DNA of 64,000 nt from a virus. The stretch lies in the IMG/VR virus record IMGVR_UViG_3300047172_000080, positions 1 through 64,000 of that record; one strand, given 5' to 3'. Position 1 is the stretch's first letter. Every line of letters starts with the position of its first letter. Shown here in pieces: positions 155 through 57,892 of the stretch. The translations under genes were made by a program, and so were the position numbers. The notes under the pieces are model-generated. The model ran no database searches. It was not told the origin of the DNA and saw only the letters and a list, made by a program, of their open reading frames with translations.

Positions 155-1598
155 ATTTCTCCCATTCTATTTCATCAATTCGATCAATTATCTTTACTGG
201 CCAACCTTGACTCTCGTATATCTCTTTTCTTTTCTTACTCATATTCTCAAGTGTCTCGTCCTGTTGGTCCCATATGTCCACAAGTACGAAATGCGTTTTA
301 GGCTCTACACCTAATTGCTCTCTTACATCATCTTTAAGAATACGATTACCACGAAATGCTTCCTGTAACATTTCAATTTTACTACTTCCACCCGCAGCTT
401 GGACAACTACTCTGCAGTTCTGTGAATTAAACCCTGCTTTTAATGCATTAGTCGCACAAAGATATTGAAATTCATTATTTACAAAACCATCAATAATCTT
501 ATCTTGTTCTTTCGGCTTTAATGCAAATTCTTTAATACCTGCTTTGTTTGATTCACGGTGTACCCACTTTGTACCTTCTGGTAAATAAGGCATAAGAGGT
601 ATCAAATGATTCTTGATCTCATTAACAAATATCAACGTTTGCCATTTGTTAGGTACGGCTTTACAAATCTTACCTATTAACTCATTTCGAGTAGCGTTCT
701 TTCTGATGCCATATTTAAGCTTTCTATCGATATCCCCCGACATAGGTAGACTAGTTGGCATTCTGAGCATGTAAACTATTCCAGGCACTACAGCACCCAT
801 ATCTAAACCTTCCTCGTAATCAATATCTACCAAAGGTTCACCAAAGATACCTTTGAGTACTTTCTCAGATTTAGAAAATAATCCTTCATCTGTAGCTGTA
901 TAACCAAATATTCTATATGGTTTAATCTGCCCAAAGATTTGTTGAATCTTATCCCCTGTAGAACCTTGCAATTCATCAACTAGTAATAACTGGCATTTTT
1001 CTAAGGCACAATTTTGTAATGACGCAAAAGTAGTAATAGTGATATCAGGACTTAAATCATGCATTCCACCACCCATCATACCTATATGTTTATCGGGAAA
1101 TAATTCCTTAAAATCTTTAAAGGTCTTTCGGGTAACTTCCTTATAAGGAATTGCTAGAATAGTATTTAAACTATTCCAAGCAGCATAAGTCATAGCTTGT
1201 ACAAAGGTTTTTCCAAATGCCCCAATGGCTTTGAAAGTACCACTTTCTTTTTCACCTGCTGTTAAGAACTTAATAATAGGGTCTACTTGATAATCTCTTA
1301 ATCCTACTCGTTGTACCGCTTCCCAATCAATAGGAGGCATTACAGTTCTTCTGTCGTCTATTGTACAAACATCTAAATTCTTTTCAATTAATGTTATAAT
1401 CTTCTTAAAAAACCCTTGAAGAGTATATATTCCTCCCGAACCATCTAAACTATACAATAATAGTTTCTGAAAATCATCTACTTTTTTAAAATTCTTAAGA
1501 ACAAATCCTCTTTTAGTATATTGGAGGTAGTTTGTAATATAAGGAGGAGCAGGGCTAATCCATAACCCCGCATCCCCTCTAATAACGTTAATTTTCAT
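141..1598 (-). CDS. superfamily 2 DNA helicase (UvsW-like)
   Basis: Q motif LRDYQ, Walker A GAFGKT, Walker B LLLVDELQ, motif III TAT, motif VI-like QEAFRGNR. Confidence 0.85.
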   Translation of the reverse strand: MKINVIRGDAGLWISPAPPYITNYLQYTKRGFVLKNFKKVDDFQKLLLYSLDGSGGIYTLQGFFKKIITLIEKNLDVCTIDDRRTVMPPIDWEAVQRVGLRDYQVDPIIKFLTAGEKESGTFKAIGAFGKTFVQAMTYAAWNSLNTILAIPYKEVTRKTFKDFKELFPDKHIGMMGGGMHDLSPDITITTFASLQNCALEKCQLLLVDELQGSTGDKIQQIFGQIKPYRIFGYTATDEGLFSKSEKVLKGIFGEPLVDIDYEEGLDMGAVVPGIVYMLRMPTSLPMSGDIDRKLKYGIRKNATRNELIGKICKAVPNKWQTLIFVNEIKNHLIPLMPYLPEGTKWVHRESNKAGIKEFALKPKEQDKIIDGFVNNEFQYLCATNALKAGFNSQNCRVVVQAAGGSSKIEMLQEAFRGNRILKDDVREQLGVEPKTHFVLVDIWDQQDETLENMSKKRKEIYESQGWPVKIIDRIDEIEWEKYGEN

Positions 1599-16918: not shown

Positions 16919-17338
16919 TTATTTCTTGTTGTACTCTTCAAACTCTCCACTGCTAGTAGTATAGAACATTTTTTTAAAACCAACCTGTTCTAACAACGAC
17001 TGACACCCTTTACAGGGATAACTATTATTTATTTTCTGATTTCTATCTATTCTAATATTTACAAATGTGATATCTGTACAATCATCTTTACCATACTTAA
17101 TACAACCTTGTAGTTCAGAATGGGACCCTACAGTATGACCTATATGTTCATTTTGTCTATTAGAATAATTGTATTTTAAATTTTTAGCATTAGTCTTTGA
17201 ATCATTGATTCCTATACTCAATATTTTACTTTTTTTAATTAAAAAAGTTACATGATGATTTCTAATATCATCTCTATTTCTTGGTGCTAATGCTCTGGCT
17301 ATTTCTATTAATCTGTTAAATTTCGAGGAGCCTATCAT
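16919..17338 (-). CDS. cytidine/deoxycytidylate deaminase-like protein
   Basis: HSE and PCKGC zinc motifs, SIGIN. Confidence 0.8.
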   Translation of the reverse strand: MIGSSKFNRLIEIARALAPRNRDDIRNHHVTFLIKKSKILSIGINDSKTNAKNLKYNYSNRQNEHIGHTVGSHSELQGCIKYGKDDCTDITFVNIRIDRNQKINNSYPCKGCQSLLEQVGFKKMFYTTSSGEFEEYNKK

Positions 17339-17374
17339 TGTTTAAAAATATTTCTGAAGAAAATTTTCTATTTC

Positions 17375-17440
17375 TAATGTTACAATTAAGGTTGATCGAG
17401 TGTATATTAACCCTGTTGATCAACCTTAATTGTAACATTA
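17375..17440. repeat. perfect 23-bp inverted repeat with 20-nt spacer
   Basis: TAATGTTACAATTAAGGTTGATC (17375-17397) / GATCAACCTTAATTGTAACATTA (17418-17440). Confidence 0.95.
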
Positions 17441-17553
17441 TCTATCATAGAATCTGAATTAATGTGTATATTTTCTATAAAAGGAGCAGACTCATCAACA
17501 CCTGCATCTTTAATTAATGAACACCATAATTCCATTGTTTCTGAAACAGTCAT
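17407..17553 (-). CDS. hypothetical protein (48 aa, possibly truncated)
   Basis: ATGA-coupled to the upstream gene; stops inside the inverted-repeat spacer. Confidence 0.4.
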   Translation of the reverse strand: MTVSETMELWCSLIKDAGVDESAPFIENIHINSDSMIDNVTIKVDQQG

Positions 17554-18110
17554 ATTTCTAAACTCCTGTCATTTTTAATAAAGGCGTCTCTTTGAGTAGT
17601 ATCTACCTTAACTTTTTCTTTAACTCTACGTTCTACTGTAGAAACAACTGTTCTTTCGGAGCCTGGAATTGCTAAATCTACACCAACCCTATATCCTACC
17701 GTACCATCTGGATTAACAGACATAAGATTACCATTCGAATCAATAAGGGCATTTCCTCTTTGGCTTACTAAAACAGTATTATTAGGAGGTGAATTTGTTG
17801 TTACTCTAAATACCGTTGTCATATTACTTATACTATTATCCAAATCTCTAGCCATCTCATTAACAAACATATCTCTAATTGTAGATCTAACATCAATATT
17901 TTGAGTCAGTGTAGCTGCTGTTAATCGTTCATCATTAATAGCTATTTTTTCTTGATTTGAAAATTGAGTATCTGCATAAGCTATTAAATCAGGAAACAAC
18001 GAGCCTATTGTAGGGTTAATTAAGAATTCCCTTAAGACAGCCTTAGGGACATGCATTAACTTAATACCTTTAAACTTACCTAAAGGACATTTATCATTAC
18101 CTCTTAACAT
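17550..18110 (-). CDS. hypothetical protein with DUF3820-like N-terminus
   Basis: CPLGKFKGIKLMHVP..L. Confidence 0.55.
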   Translation of the reverse strand: MLRGNDKCPLGKFKGIKLMHVPKAVLREFLINPTIGSLFPDLIAYADTQFSNQEKIAINDERLTAATLTQNIDVRSTIRDMFVNEMARDLDNSISNMTTVFRVTTNSPPNNTVLVSQRGNALIDSNGNLMSVNPDGTVGYRVGVDLAIPGSERTVVSTVERRVKEKVKVDTTQRDAFIKNDRSLEI

Positions 18111-19211: not shown

Positions 19212-20510
19212 ATGTCTACCAATTTATCGAATTTTAACAGTAAAGTCAATCTAGCAAAAGTGGTTAAACAGTTTCCTGAATACAATGACTGGTTACTTCA
19301 AGAAGTTAAACCTTATGGTGAATTTGTAAGTAACGCTGATTTTAGTTCGGTTTGTAATATCTTTGATATTTGGATAGATAAAGATAAAAATCAATTATTA
19401 TCATCAGAAATCGTGTTTGAGGATATTACAACTAAATATCCACATTTATTAAAAGATCCTGTTATTTTTAACAATTATAAGCAAAAAACTATTGGTGAAG
19501 CTGAGCGAATGGAAAAGCTTTGGAGAAGTGTAGTTGAACATAGCCAAACTGAATTAAACTCAAAACTGTACCCTATTAATGAAAGTGGAGGTAAAATCAG
19601 TTTAGGTAAGTACTTTACTTACAGTGGTTATCCTGGAGTAGTAGAAAATAAATTCGGGCATATATCTGAAAATACTAGAAACCTATTTAATACCATGCAG
19701 AAATCATGGTTAAAGCTTCATGGTTTTAGTAAACCTATTATTGTACCTTACTATTATACTCCTAAACATATTTCTTATATTGAAGTATTTGATGCCTTGG
19801 ATGAATCAACGTGGGAAAATAGACGAATACTATATAGAAATGAGTATGCAGGATTTGCTGGTACAAGAGGGCATATTTTACCGGACTTTAAAGCCTTAAT
19901 GAATAGGCAAGGATGTTTATGGAATTACACTTTAGACTACTGGAATAAGACAGTTGTAACCATAGATGAAGATTGTCCTATTTGGGTACTTTTACATATT
20001 TATAAAACAGCAAAGCTTACAAAGTTTGCAATTGATCCGCTGGATATAATTAAAGATAAAAATCTAGGTAGTTTAGTAGAACCTTATTTAAAAGATCTAT
20101 CGAAAGAACAAGTTAGAGTTTTACAAGAGAAACTTGAATATACCGATTTATTAGATAAATGGAAAAACATTAAAAGTACCAGTTACGCAGTAGGTGACAT
20201 TACGTACTTTAAACGCCCAGAAGGTTACTTCTATATTTATAAAGGCAAAGAATTTCAACTGACTAATTTTAGTATTACTTTAGTTGATCGAATAAAAAAA
20301 GATGATAAGCCTTTTTATATATTAGATATAATTCAAGGCGATAAAACAATTACATTTGAAATTCCTCAAACTAAATTTAATTCCAGGTTAGGACTTATTA
20401 ATCATTTAAGAGAATTATTTTATGATTGTGATTTAGAGCCTCCAAAAATTTATCAACCTAGTGGAGAGCATAAATTAATGAACTTCATCTTTGATTATTT
20501 TGATAGCTAA
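19212..20510 (+). CDS. hypothetical protein (possibly replication-associated)
   Basis: 432-aa ORF; C-terminal GYFY...QLTNFSI resembles primase/helicase-associated domains only weakly. Confidence 0.6.
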   Translation: MSTNLSNFNSKVNLAKVVKQFPEYNDWLLQEVKPYGEFVSNADFSSVCNIFDIWIDKDKNQLLSSEIVFEDITTKYPHLLKDPVIFNNYKQKTIGEAERMEKLWRSVVEHSQTELNSKLYPINESGGKISLGKYFTYSGYPGVVENKFGHISENTRNLFNTMQKSWLKLHGFSKPIIVPYYYTPKHISYIEVFDALDESTWENRRILYRNEYAGFAGTRGHILPDFKALMNRQGCLWNYTLDYWNKTVVTIDEDCPIWVLLHIYKTAKLTKFAIDPLDIIKDKNLGSLVEPYLKDLSKEQVRVLQEKLEYTDLLDKWKNIKSTSYAVGDITYFKRPEGYFYIYKGKEFQLTNFSITLVDRIKKDDKPFYILDIIQGDKTITFEIPQTKFNSRLGLINHLRELFYDCDLEPPKIYQPSGEHKLMNFIFDYFDS

Positions 20511-20565
20511 ACGAAAGAGGAGTTGGGGCTACTGCTCCTTGCAATAAAATTAATACCTAAGGAAG

Positions 20566-20590
20566 TGGATAGGAGTGACCCTCCTATCCA
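20566..20590 (-). terminator. hairpin, probable terminator
   Basis: 10-bp stem TGGATAGGAG/CTCCTATCCA just after the stop at 20599, between convergent genes. Confidence 0.5.
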
Positions 20591-20598
20591 AGAAACCC

Positions 20599-20784
20599 TT
20601 ACTTCCCCTTCCGTGCTTCCAACTCTAAAGATCTTCTTCTTGCCGAATTATGCCAAAATCTTCTTGTTTCTGGTGAAGCATGTTCTTAACCTTCACCTTC
20701 TTTAAGTAATGCTATAATTTGTTCATTACTTTCCGCTGCTAAGATCCTCTGACGTAGGCCAATCTTCGTTGGTGTTGTCTTCAT
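20599..20784 (-). pseudogene. small ORF with one in-frame TAA
   Basis: MKTTPTKIGLRQRILAAESNEQIIALLKEGEG*EHASPETRRFWHNSARRRSLELEARKGK*; internal TAA at 20686-20688. Confidence 0.5.
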
Positions 20785-20885
20785 ATGGATTTAGGGGTTT
20801 ACACTTTCTTGTTATATGGGGTTACTATCACTTTTAACTGTCTGTCTTCTTTATGTGTGTGAGAGGGCAGATTAGTTAAATTGTC

Positions 20886-22398
20886 AAAAAAAAAGCGTTT
20901 TTTATCCAGTATATAGGTTTGATATCCCCCCTACATACTGGACTTTCTCTTGTGAGAGACATGTAGAAAGAGTACACTTCACAAAGTCGTGTAACTTATA
21001 CTTCCTACCATGACTAATCGATGTGCATTAGCCATTTTCAGAGGGAACGTGCGTCATCACCGCATAACCTCTTATTGTTTGAATCTCCGTAGATTCCGCT
21101 CTATGCCTATTACGCTATTTATACTCGCATAGACGAGTTGGAAGAGTAGGTGCTTGCTACTATTGTTGTGATTTTCACAAACACCTACTCACTCCCGCAA
21201 TCAACTAACTGGCAAATAAAACCGAGAAAAAAATAAATGTTATTGGTTACATTGGTTTCAAACTACCTCCTGGAGTCAGGATGTTATGTTAAGCATCCTT
21301 AAATGGGGAAAAATGCAACGTGCTGTATCTTGGGGATACAACACGCTTAGTAGTATAGACCTGCATTGTCAGTCGTTTAGACGGCCAACCGCACGATCTT
21401 GGAACTTCTTCCATTTCTAGAAATTATTATTTATTCGCCCTTGCATGTGAGGAGAGTTTACTTAACTTCTCACATGCAAGGGTTTTCAGGGTTTCCAATT
21501 TCCCTAGCTTATTTTCTACTGCCCATAGAGATAACAAGCAAATTCATATGGGCGCTTCACGACTACTTGGTACTTTAATATTCAACCGTGAATATTGAAT
21601 ATAAAGGTTTTTGATGTGGAGATCTCTAACTCCAGGAAAAATCAACGCATTAGGAGAGCATCGAGTTTCTGTAAACTCTGTACTCAAAACTGAATTACTT
21701 TTTCAAGGTAGTCCTTCCTATTAGGACAATATATATATATATATAATTACTTACTGCTTGAAAAGCTAGACAATTCCCCCGCTAATTCAGTATTTATGTG
21801 GCTCTATAAGATTTACTTTAATTCAGTAAAGCAGCCGCTTATAGCATAAACATGTTTTTAGGTTCATGTCGTAAGTGAAGAGAATTTACCCCTCCTATCA
21901 GGCAATGATAAAGTTCTAAATGCTGCTGGTCCAGGTAACCCTTGGATTACTGCCGTAATTGCCAAACTCGTGTCCTACCACGGCGATGCGTCTAGATCAG
22001 CTATAATACACCATCAAGAAAACAGAAGTTCTCCATCTATTGATATACTATATTTGCCATGCCGATCAAAATTATAGATTGAAGTCCACTTGTTCACACA
22101 ACGCATCGCCTAAGCTCAAGCTATAGAAAAGCTCTTTTCGTAACTATTACTAGAATACGATTCGCCCAACAGCATTCATGGCATCGGTTCAACAAGTGGA
22201 CTTCAATCTACATAATTTATATAAGGGAAATCTTTTCTGACATCTACTTGATGTATGTTTGAATGTGGTTGTGTGAAAATCTCTCAATTTGTGGAGCACA
22301 TTCAGCTTTAAAAGAACGAGTATTTGACCCTACATCTAGGTACATTTTAGCACAAGTAGATGCCAGAAAAGTGAAACAGAAACTAACAGCTTCCATTA
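20886..22398 (-). ncRNA. candidate large (~1.5 kb) structured non-coding RNA of unknown class
   Basis: no convincing ORF; many stems up to 20 bp; long-range complementarities; at least 7 stems with G-U wobbles on the minus strand; phage promoter at 22405-22445; hairpin plus U-run near 20886-20942. Confidence 0.7.
21729..21745. repeat. (AT)8 microsatellite
   Basis: ATATATATATATATATA. Confidence 0.9.
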
Positions 22399-22404
22399 CT
22401 TATT

Positions 22405-22445
22405 ATTATACCAAATATATACTGTTTATTCGGGGAGGGGAGGGG
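22405..22445 (-). promoter_or_regulatory. phage promoter CCCC-N~24-TGGTATAAT, copy 1
   Basis: minus strand CCCCTCCCCTCCCC...TGGTATAATAA; motif occurs 5 times in the window. Confidence 0.75.
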
Positions 22446-23153
22446 TTAATACCCATTATACCCCCCATAAGCACAATTATCTTGTCCATTATTGCCTTGG
22501 ACAGTATTAAAGGGGCGGGGGTATGAATTAGGAACATTACTGCGCTTATTAGCTGCCCCTGTTTCAATAGAATCGGGATTAGGACTAAAAGCAGCGTATT
22601 CAATATTAAAATATGACTTACCGAGAATTGAAGTTCTAGGTTTAATGCTAATAGCTTGATTTACCAAGCCTACAGCCCACACATCTAACTCATAAGTACC
22701 TTCTAACAAGGTTCCTGTTACTGAATTAGGAATAAAAATGACATAATGGTTACAATCTTTAGAATCTGTGTAGATACCGTTGTTTAATATACCTGCCCAA
22801 GTATAGGTGATAAGATATTGAGAAGCTTTAACAATTACATTCAATGTGTACTTGGTTAAATCTATAGGCTTTCCATCTAAATATAGAAATGCGTCATAAA
22901 TAACATCTTCTCCCTGATACCATACAGCAGAAGCATGATCTGAGCCAATAAAGTTAGAGCCTGGAATTCCTAAAGTATTTAAATCAGATTGTGGAATATT
23001 AGGATTATTAACTCTAGGAATAAGTTTAGAAGTTATTGGTATACAATTATCAAGTGGAATAGAACCTGAAGTAGGAGGGCAAGGATTACTACCTAGTTCA
23101 AAAGTAGTAGGTTGTGCAATGTCTACTTCATAGTAAGGGGGAGTTACAGGCAT
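22446..23153 (-). CDS. putative virion structural protein
   Basis: YQGED...DGKPIDLT...GTY.LDV resembles BppU-like beta-sandwich; at the end of the tail module. Confidence 0.55.
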   Translation of the reverse strand: MPVTPPYYEVDIAQPTTFELGSNPCPPTSGSIPLDNCIPITSKLIPRVNNPNIPQSDLNTLGIPGSNFIGSDHASAVWYQGEDVIYDAFLYLDGKPIDLTKYTLNVIVKASQYLITYTWAGILNNGIYTDSKDCNHYVIFIPNSVTGTLLEGTYELDVWAVGLVNQAISIKPRTSILGKSYFNIEYAAFSPNPDSIETGAANKRSNVPNSYPRPFNTVQGNNGQDNCAYGGYNGY

Positions 23154-23467: not shown

Positions 23468-23513
23468 AATATAACACCTAAATAGTAAAAAACAAAATCC
23501 TTATTTTGTTTCC

Positions 23514-23545
23514 AATAGGGCTATGGATAGAACCATAGCCCTATT
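23514..23545 (-). terminator. terminator hairpin
   Basis: 13-bp stem AATAGGGCTATGG/CCATAGCCCTATT downstream of the 23562..24047 gene. Confidence 0.65.
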
Positions 23546-23561
23546 TATTTAATGCCTACCT

Positions 23562-24047
23562 TTAGGCACCAGCCGTAGCTTCAACCGGAGGCTGTTCCTG
23601 GCGGTTGGGGCGATTCATCGGAACACGGAGTTCCTTGCCCAACGGAGCGTGCGGGGTTTCGTTGGTTTTACTGGGAATCACCGAATCCTCGTGGACCTGC
23701 TGAATTTGTCCACGGAGTTCCTGATTCTTTTCAGCCAACTCTTCCGCCGCAGAGGCGATCTTCCCGGCTTCCCGTTTGATCACTTCTTCCGAACGCTGAA
23801 TTTGAACCTCAGGTTGGACCGTCATGGACGGCTTCCTGAAGTTGCTCAGCACGGCGGCGAACTTCTGTTTCATGGTGAACATGGCCTGTTTCGCGGTATG
23901 AACCACGACAGCCCCATAGTATTGGAACCCAAGGGTTCCCGCGACACCGATTCCAACACATCCTGCCGCCGCAAGACAAGCAACCGGCTTGCTCATGACG
24001 ACATTGCGATTGGTTCCGATCTCAACGTTGATTGTAGGAGTGTCCAT
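23562..24047 (-). CDS. GC-rich membrane-anchored coiled-coil protein
   Basis: hydrophobic CLAAAGCVGIGVAGTLG segment then coiled coil; GC far above flanks. Confidence 0.7.
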   Translation of the reverse strand: MDTPTINVEIGTNRNVVMSKPVACLAAAGCVGIGVAGTLGFQYYGAVVVHTAKQAMFTMKQKFAAVLSNFRKPSMTVQPEVQIQRSEEVIKREAGKIASAAEELAEKNQELRGQIQQVHEDSVIPSKTNETPHAPLGKELRVPMNRPNRQEQPPVEATAGA

Positions 24048-24122
24048 AGTTTTCTTTCTTTTCTTTCTGGTTTATTTGTTAGTTATAACAAGCCCACATT
24101 TTAAGTGAACTTTCGTTAAATT

Positions 24123-24170
24123 ATTATACCAGTTATAACCCTTAATTTTGTACGGGGGTAGGGGAGGGGG
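24123..24170 (-). promoter_or_regulatory. phage promoter, copy 2
   Basis: CCCCCTCCCCTACCCCC...TGGTATAATAA. Confidence 0.75.
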
Positions 24171-24497: not shown

Positions 24498-24542
24498 TAA
24501 TAACCTTTTTTAAAGCAATACGTAATTGTATTACCTTTAATT

Positions 24543-24583
24543 ATTATACCAATTTATAGGTATATTTAACCCAAGGGGAGGGG
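24543..24583 (-). promoter_or_regulatory. phage promoter, copy 3
   Basis: CCCCTCCCC...TGGTATAATAA. Confidence 0.75.
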
Positions 24584-57836: not shown

Positions 57837-57856
57837 AAGTTAATGTCCTTTAACTT

Positions 57857-57892
57857 ATTATACCAATTAATTACCCCATTTTAGGGGAGGGG
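57857..57892 (-). promoter_or_regulatory. phage promoter, copy 4
   Basis: CCCCTCCCC...TGGTATAATAA. Confidence 0.75.

What the first reader, a model, noticed from the sequence alone, without database searches (positions are those of the whole stretch)
20886..22398. Candidate ~1.5 kb highly structured non-coding RNA of unknown class with its own phage promoter
Seen: the only long gap in an otherwise wall-to-wall coding genome, somewhat more GC-rich than its flanks and tiled with stems. Examples: 22075-22094/22191-22210 (20 bp perfect), 22232-22250/22353-22371 (19 bp), 21438-21451/21469-21482 (14 bp), 21144-21156/21178-21190, 21319-21329/21335-21345, 21010-21018/21027-21035 and 20905-20917/20930-20942. 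In at least seven pairings the single imperfection is A-C on plus but G-U on minus, which indicates selection on RNA rather than DNA palindromes. The phage promoter motif (22405-22445) points into it with no gene to serve, and a hairpin plus U-run closes it near 20886. I see no tRNA, tmRNA, RNase P, intron or CRISPR hallmarks. Known: large bacterial/phage ncRNAs (GOLLD, ROOL, OLE, MISL) are generally under ~1 kb. Inference: a new and larger class, possibly a scaffold, cage, ribozyme or anti-defence decoy. Caveat: several stems in 21370-21920 favour the plus strand, so this may be more than one RNA.
Basis: partly seen in the sequence, partly recalled or inferred. Interest (0 to 1): 0.92.

Follow-up and report, generated by a model that had tools for sequence, protein, structure and literature searches.

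The report
Phage non-coding RNA operon with pistol ribozyme
The gene-free 1.5 kb of this uncultured, roughly 200-kb phage looks like a real, heavily folded non-coding transcription unit that contains a known self-cutting "pistol" ribozyme; the 1.3 kb of RNA in front of the ribozyme matches no known RNA family, and no relative was found that could show whether its fold is conserved.

Summary
Window 20706-22262 is by far the longest ORF-free stretch. It is richer in GC than the rest (38% against 33%), every listed stem exists, and the minus strand folds far better than shuffles.

Its predicted cut lies between G21068 and U21067.

The stretch sits in a hypervariable RNA-gene island. Related phages, between the same two flanking genes and often behind the same promoter type, carry a tmRNA, tRNAs, a group I intron, or a GOLLD RNA followed directly by a pistol.

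The 1.26 kb upstream of the window's pistol is not GOLLD, ROOL or a tmRNA remnant. It has no sequence relative in anything I could fetch. It folds as a string of separate stem-closed domains (140, 140, 73, 370, 57 and 56 nt) and shows no confident global closure.

My best reading (about 0.5) is a multi-module non-coding RNA operon processed by the pistol. A single new giant RNA is possible (about 0.2) but untested, because no homologue means no covariation test.

This scan has noted GOLLD-pistol arrays before on other DNA. Here the cargo is an orphan.

The parts
22432..22444 (-). C-rich upstream element (CCCCTCCCCTCCCC) of the repeated promoter motif
   Evidence: CCCTCCCC occurs 5 times in the window, always on the minus strand, against 0.27 expected. 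It pairs with the -10 box at four sites.
22403..22413 (-). Extended -10 promoter box TGGTATAATAA; predicted transcription start about 22398-22396
   Evidence: Four exact copies on the minus strand at 22403, 24121, 24541 and 57855. The same or a near-identical box (GGTATAAT/GGTATAGT core) heads a tmRNA in L002, an ncRNA in L003, GOLLD in L035 and the pistol RNAs in L067, L050 and L055. The start site is inferred from spacing.
22375..22397 (-). 5' hairpin (10 bp)
   Evidence: MFE and pair probability 0.91
22232..22371 (-). Module M1: 140 nt closed by a 19-bp stem with one G-U; the interior is poorly paired
   Evidence: z -6.1. It folds equally well on the plus strand.
22073..22212 (-). Module M2: 140 nt, 22-bp perfect closing stem, rod ending in a three-way junction
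   Evidence: z -6.6. MFE -54.9 on minus against -41.0 on plus.
21995..22067 (-). Module M3: 73-nt long hairpin rich in G-U pairs
   Evidence: z -4.0. MFE -23.0 on minus against -4.6 on plus.
21638..21994 (-). Weakly structured central segment, including a (UA)n tract at 21727-21756
   Evidence: z -1.7, with 8 of 100 shuffles folding as well; the palindromic TA tract is I4
21268..21637 (-). Module M5: 370-nt multi-branch domain closed by a 12-bp stem (21637-21626/21279-21268). It contains the 14-bp hairpin 21482-21438 and the terminator-like hairpin 21347-21317 followed by GCAUUUUU
   Evidence: z -7.8, centroid close to MFE; closing-stem probability 0.98; terminator-like call. It folds equally well on the plus strand.
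21211..21267 (-). Module M6: 57-nt hairpin
   Evidence: M6-7 MFE -37.4 on minus against -24.1 on plus.
21140..21195 (-). Module M7: hairpin (4+14 bp) ending 2 nt before the pistol
21063..21138 (-). Pistol self-cleaving ribozyme; predicted cut between G21068 and U21067. There is an 11-nt insert (AAACAAUAAGA) between P3 (21096-21081) and the scissile G-U
   Evidence: RF02679, 39.6 bits against a cut-off of 34.5, full model 1-68. The 6-bp pseudoknot UCUAUG/CAUAGA is intact and covaries across 38 pistols. The cut site is inferred from the model alignment.
20886..21067 (-). 3' cleavage product, about 180 nt: hairpins 21035-21010 and 21008-20963, then hairpin 20943-20904 plus A6-CGC-U9 (U-run 20894-20886)
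   Evidence: z -3.9. That it acts as a terminator is inferred.

Best explanation
The stretch is a protein-free transcription unit on the minus strand, a non-coding RNA operon. It lies in the hypervariable RNA-gene island of a lineage of roughly 200-kb uncultured phages.

An extended -10 promoter (TGGTATAATAA behind a C-rich element) starts a primary transcript of about 1.5 kb near 22397. The transcript folds, probably as it is made, into a string of autonomous stem-closed domains: M1 140 nt, M2 140 nt, M3 73 nt, a loosely folded 357 nt, M5 370 nt, M6 57 nt and M7 56 nt.

The pistol ribozyme at 21138-21063 then cuts between G21068 and U21067. This releases a 5' RNA of about 1.33 kb ending in a 2',3'-cyclic phosphate, and a 3' RNA of about 180 nt that carries the terminal hairpin. 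The 19-22-bp perfect closing stems of M1 and M2 are long enough to be RNase III substrates and may release those modules.

Shown here: the ORF-free state, the stems, excess folding, the pistol match, the repeated promoter motif, and the synteny with RNA genes in relatives.

Inferred: transcription itself, the ends, ribozyme activity, RNase III processing, and that the modules are separate functional RNAs.

The job of the cargo is unknown. By position it replaces the tmRNA, tRNA or GOLLD cargo of relatives, so an RNA that acts on host translation or on host takeover and defence is the most likely kind.
For: (1) No ORF of 60 aa or more in 1,557 nt, and no stop-codon reassignment opens a frame. 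No trace of the small proteins that relatives encode here (tblastn).

(2) Folding z = -6.1, -3.8 and -6.7 on the minus strand, against +1.2 to -2.4 for coding controls. Single modules give z = -6.1, -6.6, -4.0 and -7.8.

(3) Strand: the promoter motif, the pistol and the U-run are all on the minus strand. The whole-region MFE is 68 kcal/mol lower on the minus strand. M2, M3, M6-7 and the 3' piece are minus-specific.

(4) The Pistol match is above Rfam's cut-off, with an intact, covarying pseudoknot.

(5) Synteny: between homologues of the 235-aa and 432-aa genes, relatives carry a tmRNA (10 loci), tRNAs, a group I intron, or GOLLD followed after 9-11 nt by a pistol (G005, G012).

(6) The five records with the most similar pistols belong to the same clade. 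In the one case that could be mapped (L067), the pistol lies in the same island. In L067, L050 and L055 a C-rich element plus GGTATAAT promoter heads the RNA that precedes the pistol.

(7) Modular reading: no long-range helix beyond 370 nt has a probability above 0.35. Stem-closed modules of 116-118 nt also occur in relatives (L036:2453-2570; L075, L080 and L050). One of them is present or absent between close relatives and has a covarying closing stem.
Against: There are no expression data for this DNA. No homologue of the 1.26-kb cargo was found, so none of its helices has covariation support.

M1 and M5 fold equally well on both strands, and three repeats in 21438-21608 wobble on the plus strand. 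DNA-level palindromes or a plus-strand RNA in the middle are therefore not excluded.

Hairpin 21347-21317 followed by GCAUUUUU looks like an internal terminator. If it is efficient, it would stop most transcripts before the pistol and before M5's closing strand.

The pistol carries an unusual 11-nt insert next to its cleavage site, so its activity is not assured. The terminal U-run lies 9 nt from its hairpin.
Confidence: 0.5

Rival explanations
1. One giant functional RNA: the roughly 1.33 kb from the promoter to the pistol cut is a single new large structured RNA. It would be a functional analogue of GOLLD (for example a scaffold or cage) whose 3' end is made by the pistol.
For: It occupies the position that GOLLD holds in relatives G005 and G012, where a pistol follows GOLLD after 9-11 nt. 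There is one promoter motif and one terminal hairpin plus U-run for the whole stretch. M5 alone is a well-defined 370-nt multi-branch domain.
Against: It is not GOLLD. There is no RF02032 hit at E up to 10, and the signature motifs GUAAUCUCA, GUGGAUA and UCAAAAG are absent from the minus strand. There is no ROOL or other large-RNA hit either. No confident long-range closure was predicted, and the central 357 nt is barely structured. Long perfect hairpins dominate; I did not see the multi-junction ornate architecture by eye. No homologue means no covariation test.
Confidence: 0.2
2. Largely non-functional, fast-evolving spacer. The island turns over quickly, and most of the 1.26 kb is decaying or selfish hairpin-rich DNA (for example remnants of small palindromic insertions) that is merely transcribed along with a functional pistol.
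For: No homologue in about 80 related or pistol-bearing loci, in 50,697 phage records or in IMG/VR. The island's content differs in almost every relative. M1 and M2 are both 140 nt with near-perfect terminal inverted repeats, which is MITE-like. M1 and M5 fold equally well on both strands.
Against: The phage genome is otherwise tightly packed; the next ORF-free stretch is 223 nt. GC is raised, as in RNA genes. The strongly strand-specific G-U-rich folds of M2, M3 and M6-7 are not expected of DNA palindromes. There are no other copies of the arms in the 79-kb record.
Confidence: 0.15
3. DNA-level element (replication origin or packaging site) rather than an RNA gene.
For: A (TA)n tract at 21727-21756 could serve as an unwinding element. 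There are many palindromes, some strand-symmetric. The stretch lies at a boundary of convergent transcription.
Against: There are no iterons or direct repeats: the only one is 10 nt in two copies. The promoter, the pistol ribozyme and the U-run are all co-oriented. Relatives hold RNA genes at this site. The minus strand has a folding advantage of 68 kcal/mol.
Confidence: 0.07
4. The 5' end encodes a small leaderless protein: ORF 22396-22244, 50 codons, whose ATG sits at the predicted transcription start. M1 would then be partly mRNA.
For: The ATG lies 9 nt after the -10 box. M1's interior is mostly unpaired.
Against: No homologue in 5.8 billion proteins, and the source's gene caller did not call it either. 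Sixteen ORFs of 30-59 aa occur in the gap by chance. Relatives have RNAs, not proteins, directly behind this promoter.
Confidence: 0.05

Closest known systems
Pistol self-cleaving ribozyme (Rfam RF02679; Weinberg et al. 2015, from my own knowledge; Harris et al. 2015, PMC4604425)
   Same: Window 21138-21063 (minus) matches the full model above the curated cut-off. It has the P1 hairpin, the AUAAAUA linker, the 6-bp pseudoknot, P2, P3 and a G-U at the cleavage position. It lies in a phage, as pistols often do (PMC4604425).
   Different: It has an 11-nt insert between P3 and the scissile G-U. Here the pistol is embedded near the 3' end of a 1.5-kb protein-free transcript. Activity was not tested.
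GOLLD RNA (Rfam RF02032; Weinberg et al. 2009, from my own knowledge; cryo-EM 14-mer cage, Kretsch et al. 2025, PMC12286853)
   Same: A large, structured, phage-borne RNA in an RNA-gene island. In two relatives (G005, G012) GOLLD sits at the corresponding place and is followed by the same kind of pistol.
   Different: The conserved GOLLD 3' domain is absent: there is no model hit and no signature motifs. The window's RNA is longer (1.26 kb against about 0.7-0.8 kb) and folds as serial hairpin domains, not as a two-domain ornate fold.
ROOL RNA (Rfam RF03087; Weinberg et al. 2017, PMC5737381)
   Same: A large phage or prophage RNA often found near tRNA genes.
   Different: No match at E up to 10.
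Phage tmRNA/tRNA gene islands
   Same: Same genomic slot and, in L002, the same promoter box as the tmRNA of a related phage. Ten related loci carry a tmRNA in this slot, and L010 and L011 also carry tRNAs there.
   Different: No tRNA or tmRNA in the window. A profile built from the clade's tmRNAs finds no remnant.

Membership tests
Pistol ribozyme (RF02679) | Covariance-model score at or above the curated gathering score over the full model | tested here: met
   39.6 bits against 34.5, model positions 1-68 of 68, E 3.4e-5 in the 2.3-kb search
Pistol ribozyme (RF02679) | P1 hairpin whose loop forms a 6-bp pseudoknot with the P2-P3 internal loop | tested here: met
   Loop UCUAUG pairs with CAUAGA. 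The variable dinucleotide covaries across 38 phage pistols (AU/AU, GA/UC, GG/CC, GU/AC, AA/UU, CG/CG, plus wobbles).
Pistol ribozyme (RF02679) | Conserved A-rich linker (AUAAAUA) and the GAGCG segment | tested here: met
   Both are present and identical to the consensus (alignment)
Pistol ribozyme (RF02679) | P3 helix directly followed by the scissile G-U and the 3' strand of P2 | tested here: inconclusive
   P3 (GAAUCU/AGAUUC), the G-U and P2 (GCGUA/UAUGC) are all present, but 11 extra nt separate P3 from the G-U
Pistol ribozyme (RF02679) | Mg2+-dependent self-cleavage | not testable with these tools
   Needs an in vitro transcript
GOLLD (RF02032) | Universally conserved 3' domain (Rfam model of 416 positions) | tested here: not met
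   No hit at E up to 10 on 20400-22700. Relatives L036 and L035 score 141 and 150 bits with the same model.
GOLLD (RF02032) | Signature sequences of the 3' domain (terminal hairpin loop GUAAUCUCA, GUGGAUA, UCAAAAG) | tested here: not met
   GUAAUCUCA is absent on both strands even with one mismatch. On the minus strand GUGGAUA and UCAAAAG have no exact copy, only scattered one-mismatch hits.
GOLLD (RF02032) | Phage or prophage location near tRNA or other RNA genes | tested here: met
   Same island as the tmRNA, tRNA and GOLLD genes of relatives
ROOL (RF03087) | Match to the family model | tested here: not met
   Not among the hits at E up to 10
tmRNA (RF00023) | tRNA-like domain (acceptor stem, T-arm, CCA end) and a tag reading frame | tested here: not met
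   No hit from ARAGORN, from RF00023 on the whole record, or from nhmmer with a profile of 10 clade tmRNAs at E up to 100

The most novel reading that the evidence does not exclude
The 1.26-1.33 kb between the promoter and the pistol cut is a single, previously undescribed giant phage RNA. It would be longer than GOLLD, would fill GOLLD's slot in this phage lineage, and would be matured at its 3' end by a pistol ribozyme. That would make it a second, unrelated solution to whatever GOLLD does.
Probability: 0.2. Interest if true: 0.85.

Novelty: new variant of a known kind. Interest (0 to 1): 0.55.

Why it matters
Large structured phage RNAs such as GOLLD and ROOL build RNA-only cages, and what they do is still unknown (PMC12286853). 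This locus adds three things.

First, in one lineage of roughly 200-kb phages, a single slot holds interchangeable RNA cargo, in several relatives behind the same promoter type: a tmRNA, tRNAs, a group I intron, GOLLD, or orphan RNAs. This ties GOLLD-type RNAs by genetic context to translation-related RNAs.

Second, pistol ribozymes recur at the edge of such cargo, which gives pistols a concrete biological role as processing sites of non-coding RNA operons.

Third, here the cargo is 1.26 kb of strongly folding RNA with no family. It is a candidate for new RNA classes, or at least a test case for how fast such islands turn over. The pistol cut site and the RNase III-sized stems can be tested directly in vitro without knowing the host.

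Tried and rejected
Known RNA families
- GOLLD, ROOL, OLE and others: no Rfam family at E up to 10 apart from Pistol.
- tmRNA remnant: a 16-nt match to L002's tmRNA proved to be chance. A profile of 10 clade tmRNAs finds nothing.
- tRNA-like pieces: ARAGORN finds none, and only junk at relaxed thresholds.
- Model R1, built from the relatives' 116-nt module: no copy in the window.

Coding explanations
- Recoded or broken genes: no frame opens, and there is no tblastn trace of the relatives' island proteins.

Search for homologues of the cargo
- Nothing beyond the pistol core and the promoter was found by blastn or nhmmer against 81 fetched loci, against INPHARED phages in 'distant' mode at E up to 10, against the rest of the record, or among the scan's own windows.
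- M1 and M2 are not detectably related to each other.
- The metagenome scan gave only distant relatives.

Expression and variation
- No RNA holder is listed for this DNA; the only holders are two moss-metagenome DNA runs that may be its source.
- Laying the runs showed only the source contigs and no variants.

Full report
**What is there**

The window is the first 64 kb of a 79-kb IMG/VR virus record that CheckV rates 39% complete, which implies a genome near 200 kb. The DNA is held by two moss-metagenome runs that may be its source. Genes run almost wall to wall on the minus strand.

Window 20706-22262 has no ORF of 60 aa or more. At 1,557 nt it is seven times longer than the next such stretch. 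Reassigning any one stop codon does not open a frame. GC is 38.0% against 33.4% for the window.

The minus strand folds far better than dinucleotide shuffles:

| Sequence | z-scores |
|---|---|
| Gap, minus strand, three 500-nt windows | -6.1, -3.8, -6.7 |
| Same windows, plus strand | -2.7, -3.9, -2.9 |
| Six coding controls | +1.2 to -2.4 |

**Strand**

The whole-region MFE is -465 kcal/mol on the minus strand and -397 on the plus strand. Strand preference differs by module:

| Module | MFE, minus strand | MFE, plus strand |
|---|---|---|
| M2 | -54.9 | -41.0 |
| M3 | -23.0 | -4.6 |
| M6-7 | -37.4 | -24.1 |
| 3' piece | -54.6 | -42.7 |
| M1 | -41.6 | -41.0 |
| M5 | -122.0 | -119.2 |

M1 and M5 are therefore strand-neutral. 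Three near-perfect repeats inside 21438-21608 carry their wobble on the plus strand. The co-oriented promoter, ribozyme and U-run decide for the minus strand.

**Promoter and end**

The motif CCCTCCCC, about 20 nt, then TGGTATAATAA occurs four times in the window, always on the minus strand. The sites are at 22403-22444, 24121-24168, 24541-24582 and 57855-57891. Three of them precede small genes. The same or a near-identical box heads RNA genes in relatives:
- a tmRNA in L002;
- an unassigned structured RNA of about 300 nt in L003;
- GOLLD in L035;
- the RNA in front of the pistol in L067, L050 and L055.

The unit ends with hairpin 20943-20904 followed by A6-CGC-U9 (U-run 20894-20886). This is not a textbook terminator, and the scan did not call it one. 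The scan did flag hairpin 21347-21317 plus GCAUUUUU inside the unit.

Rfam finds a Pistol self-cleaving ribozyme at 21138-21063 on the minus strand: 39.6 bits against a cut-off of 34.5, over the full model.
- P1, the AUAAAUA linker, the GAGCG segment, P2 (GCGUA/UAUGC) and P3 (GAAUCU/AGAUUC) are all in place.
- The 6-bp pseudoknot UCUAUG/CAUAGA is intact.
- Across 38 phage pistols the variable pseudoknot dinucleotide changes in a compensatory way.
- The model alignment puts the cut between G21068 and U21067.
- An 11-nt insert between P3 and the scissile G-U is unusual, so activity needs a bench test.

**Context**

The flanking 235-aa gene (22446-23153, minus) and the convergent 432-aa gene (19212-20510, plus) have homologues in more than 25 viral contigs of 70-204 kb. 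Between these two genes relatives carry:
- a tmRNA, in ten loci, 104-156 bits;
- tRNAs (L010, L011);
- a group I intron right after the tmRNA (L006-L008);
- small ORFs;
- in G005 and G012, GOLLD (141 and 150 bits) followed after 9-11 nt by a pistol.

The five records whose pistols are most like the window's all encode the 432-aa homologue, so they belong to the same clade. In L067, the one case that could be mapped, the pistol lies in the same island. In L067, L050 and L055 it lies about 200-330 nt behind a C-rich element plus GGTATAAT promoter.

The layout promoter, RNA cargo, pistol, more RNA is therefore conserved, while the cargo varies. Among 31 other pistol-bearing viral records, 4 have GOLLD, and in one of these (G027) the pistol lies 5' of GOLLD. 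The literature I could search does not link pistol with GOLLD. This scan's earlier notes do, on other DNA.

**The cargo here**

The 1.26 kb upstream of the pistol has no identifiable family:
- It is not GOLLD. There is no hit at E up to 10, and the signature motifs are absent.
- It is not ROOL or any other Rfam family.
- It is not a decayed tmRNA or tRNA.
- It is not a decayed gene.
- It has no sequence relative in 81 fetched loci, in INPHARED, in the rest of the record or in the scan's own index.

Its predicted fold is a chain of closed domains:

| Element | Coordinates (minus strand) | Size and closure | z-score (call) |
|---|---|---|---|
| 5' hairpin | 22397-22375 | 10 bp | n/a |
| M1 | 22371-22232 | 140 nt, 19-bp stem | -6.1 (77) |
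| M2 | 22212-22073 | 140 nt, 22-bp stem | -6.6 (77) |
| M3 | 22067-21995 | 73 nt | -4.0 (77) |
| Loose segment with a (UA)n tract | 21994-21638 | 357 nt | -1.7 (87) |
| M5 | 21637-21268 | 370 nt, 12-bp closing stem | -7.8 (86) |
| M6 and M7 | 21267-21140 | 57 and 56 nt | n/a |
| Pistol | 21138-21063 | 76 nt | n/a |
| 3' piece | 21067-20886 | about 180 nt | -3.9 (88) |

No helix spanning more than 370 nt has a pairing probability above 0.35.

Similar stem-closed modules occur in relatives. L036:2453-2570 is 118 nt with a 17-bp stem. A 116-nt three-way-junction module lies just upstream of the pistol in L075, L080 and L050 but is absent from L067 and L055. Its closing stem shows compensatory changes. 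The window has no copy of that module.

**Reading**

Most likely (about 0.5), this is a non-coding RNA operon. One promoter drives a 1.5-kb precursor made of independent folded modules. The pistol separates a 1.33-kb 5' part from a 0.18-kb 3' part. The 19-22-bp perfect stems are plausible RNase III sites.

It lacks a global fold and has no comparative support.

A fast-evolving, largely non-functional spacer (0.15), a DNA-level element (0.07) and a leaderless 50-codon ORF at the 5' end (0.05; no homologue) are weaker alternatives.

**Limits**

There are no expression data: no RNA holder is listed.

Noticed in passing
L075:720-835 (-), L080:5059-5174 (-), L050:2019-2134 (+): A 116-nt stem-closed three-way-junction RNA module lies just upstream of the pistol in three clade relatives and is absent at the same place in L067 and L055. 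The 14-bp closing stem shows compensatory changes, and the loop CAAAGGUCCAC is conserved. It was found in none of the 53 other loci searched, nor in the window.
   Followed up: partly
window 23510-24168 (minus): A moron-like unit: the promoter motif at 24121-24168, a 161-aa ORF at 23562-24047 with GC 55% in a 33% GC genome, then a clean terminator hairpin at 23545-23510. The protein looks like a transmembrane helix plus coiled coil and has no Pfam or PHROG match, which suggests recent acquisition from a GC-richer source.
   Followed up: partly
window 22403-22444, 24121-24168, 24541-24582, 57855-57891 (minus): A composite promoter motif (CCCTCCCC, about 20 nt, TGGTATAATAA) is repeated four times. 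It heads small self-contained units: the ncRNA and ORFs of 161, 98 and 137 aa. The same or a near-identical -10 box heads RNA genes in relatives.
   Followed up: partly
L006:6162-6371, L007:6162-6371, L008:1146-1355: A group I intron (68.7 bits) begins 17 nt after the tmRNA 3' end and is followed by a 184-190-aa ORF on the opposite strand, possibly a homing endonuclease. The gene that hosts the intron was not identified.
   Followed up: no
L003:5730-6040: The closest relative (45% identity in the 235-aa protein) has, behind the same promoter, a structured RNA of about 300 nt (z -5.0) ending in a clean terminator. It matches no Rfam family and is not similar to the window's RNA.
   Followed up: partly
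window 22244-22396 (minus): A 50-codon ORF has its ATG at the predicted transcription start, so it may be leaderless. It has no homologue in 5.8 billion proteins.
   Followed up: yes
G027 (L048) 94-475 and 845-912 (minus); G005 78588-79069; G012 17289-17773: Pistols flank GOLLD on either side in different phages: 5' of GOLLD in G027, and 3' of it (9-11 nt away) in G005 and G012. Of the 38 pistol-bearing viral records looked at (36 from the pattern scan plus the two relatives), six carry GOLLD.
   Followed up: partly
window 20686-20784 (minus) and 20523-20705 (plus): The 376 nt between the U-run and the convergent 432-aa gene hold only a 32-codon ORF and a 60-codon ORF, plus a strong hairpin at 20560-20620 that may act as a bidirectional terminator. 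Not examined further.
   Followed up: no
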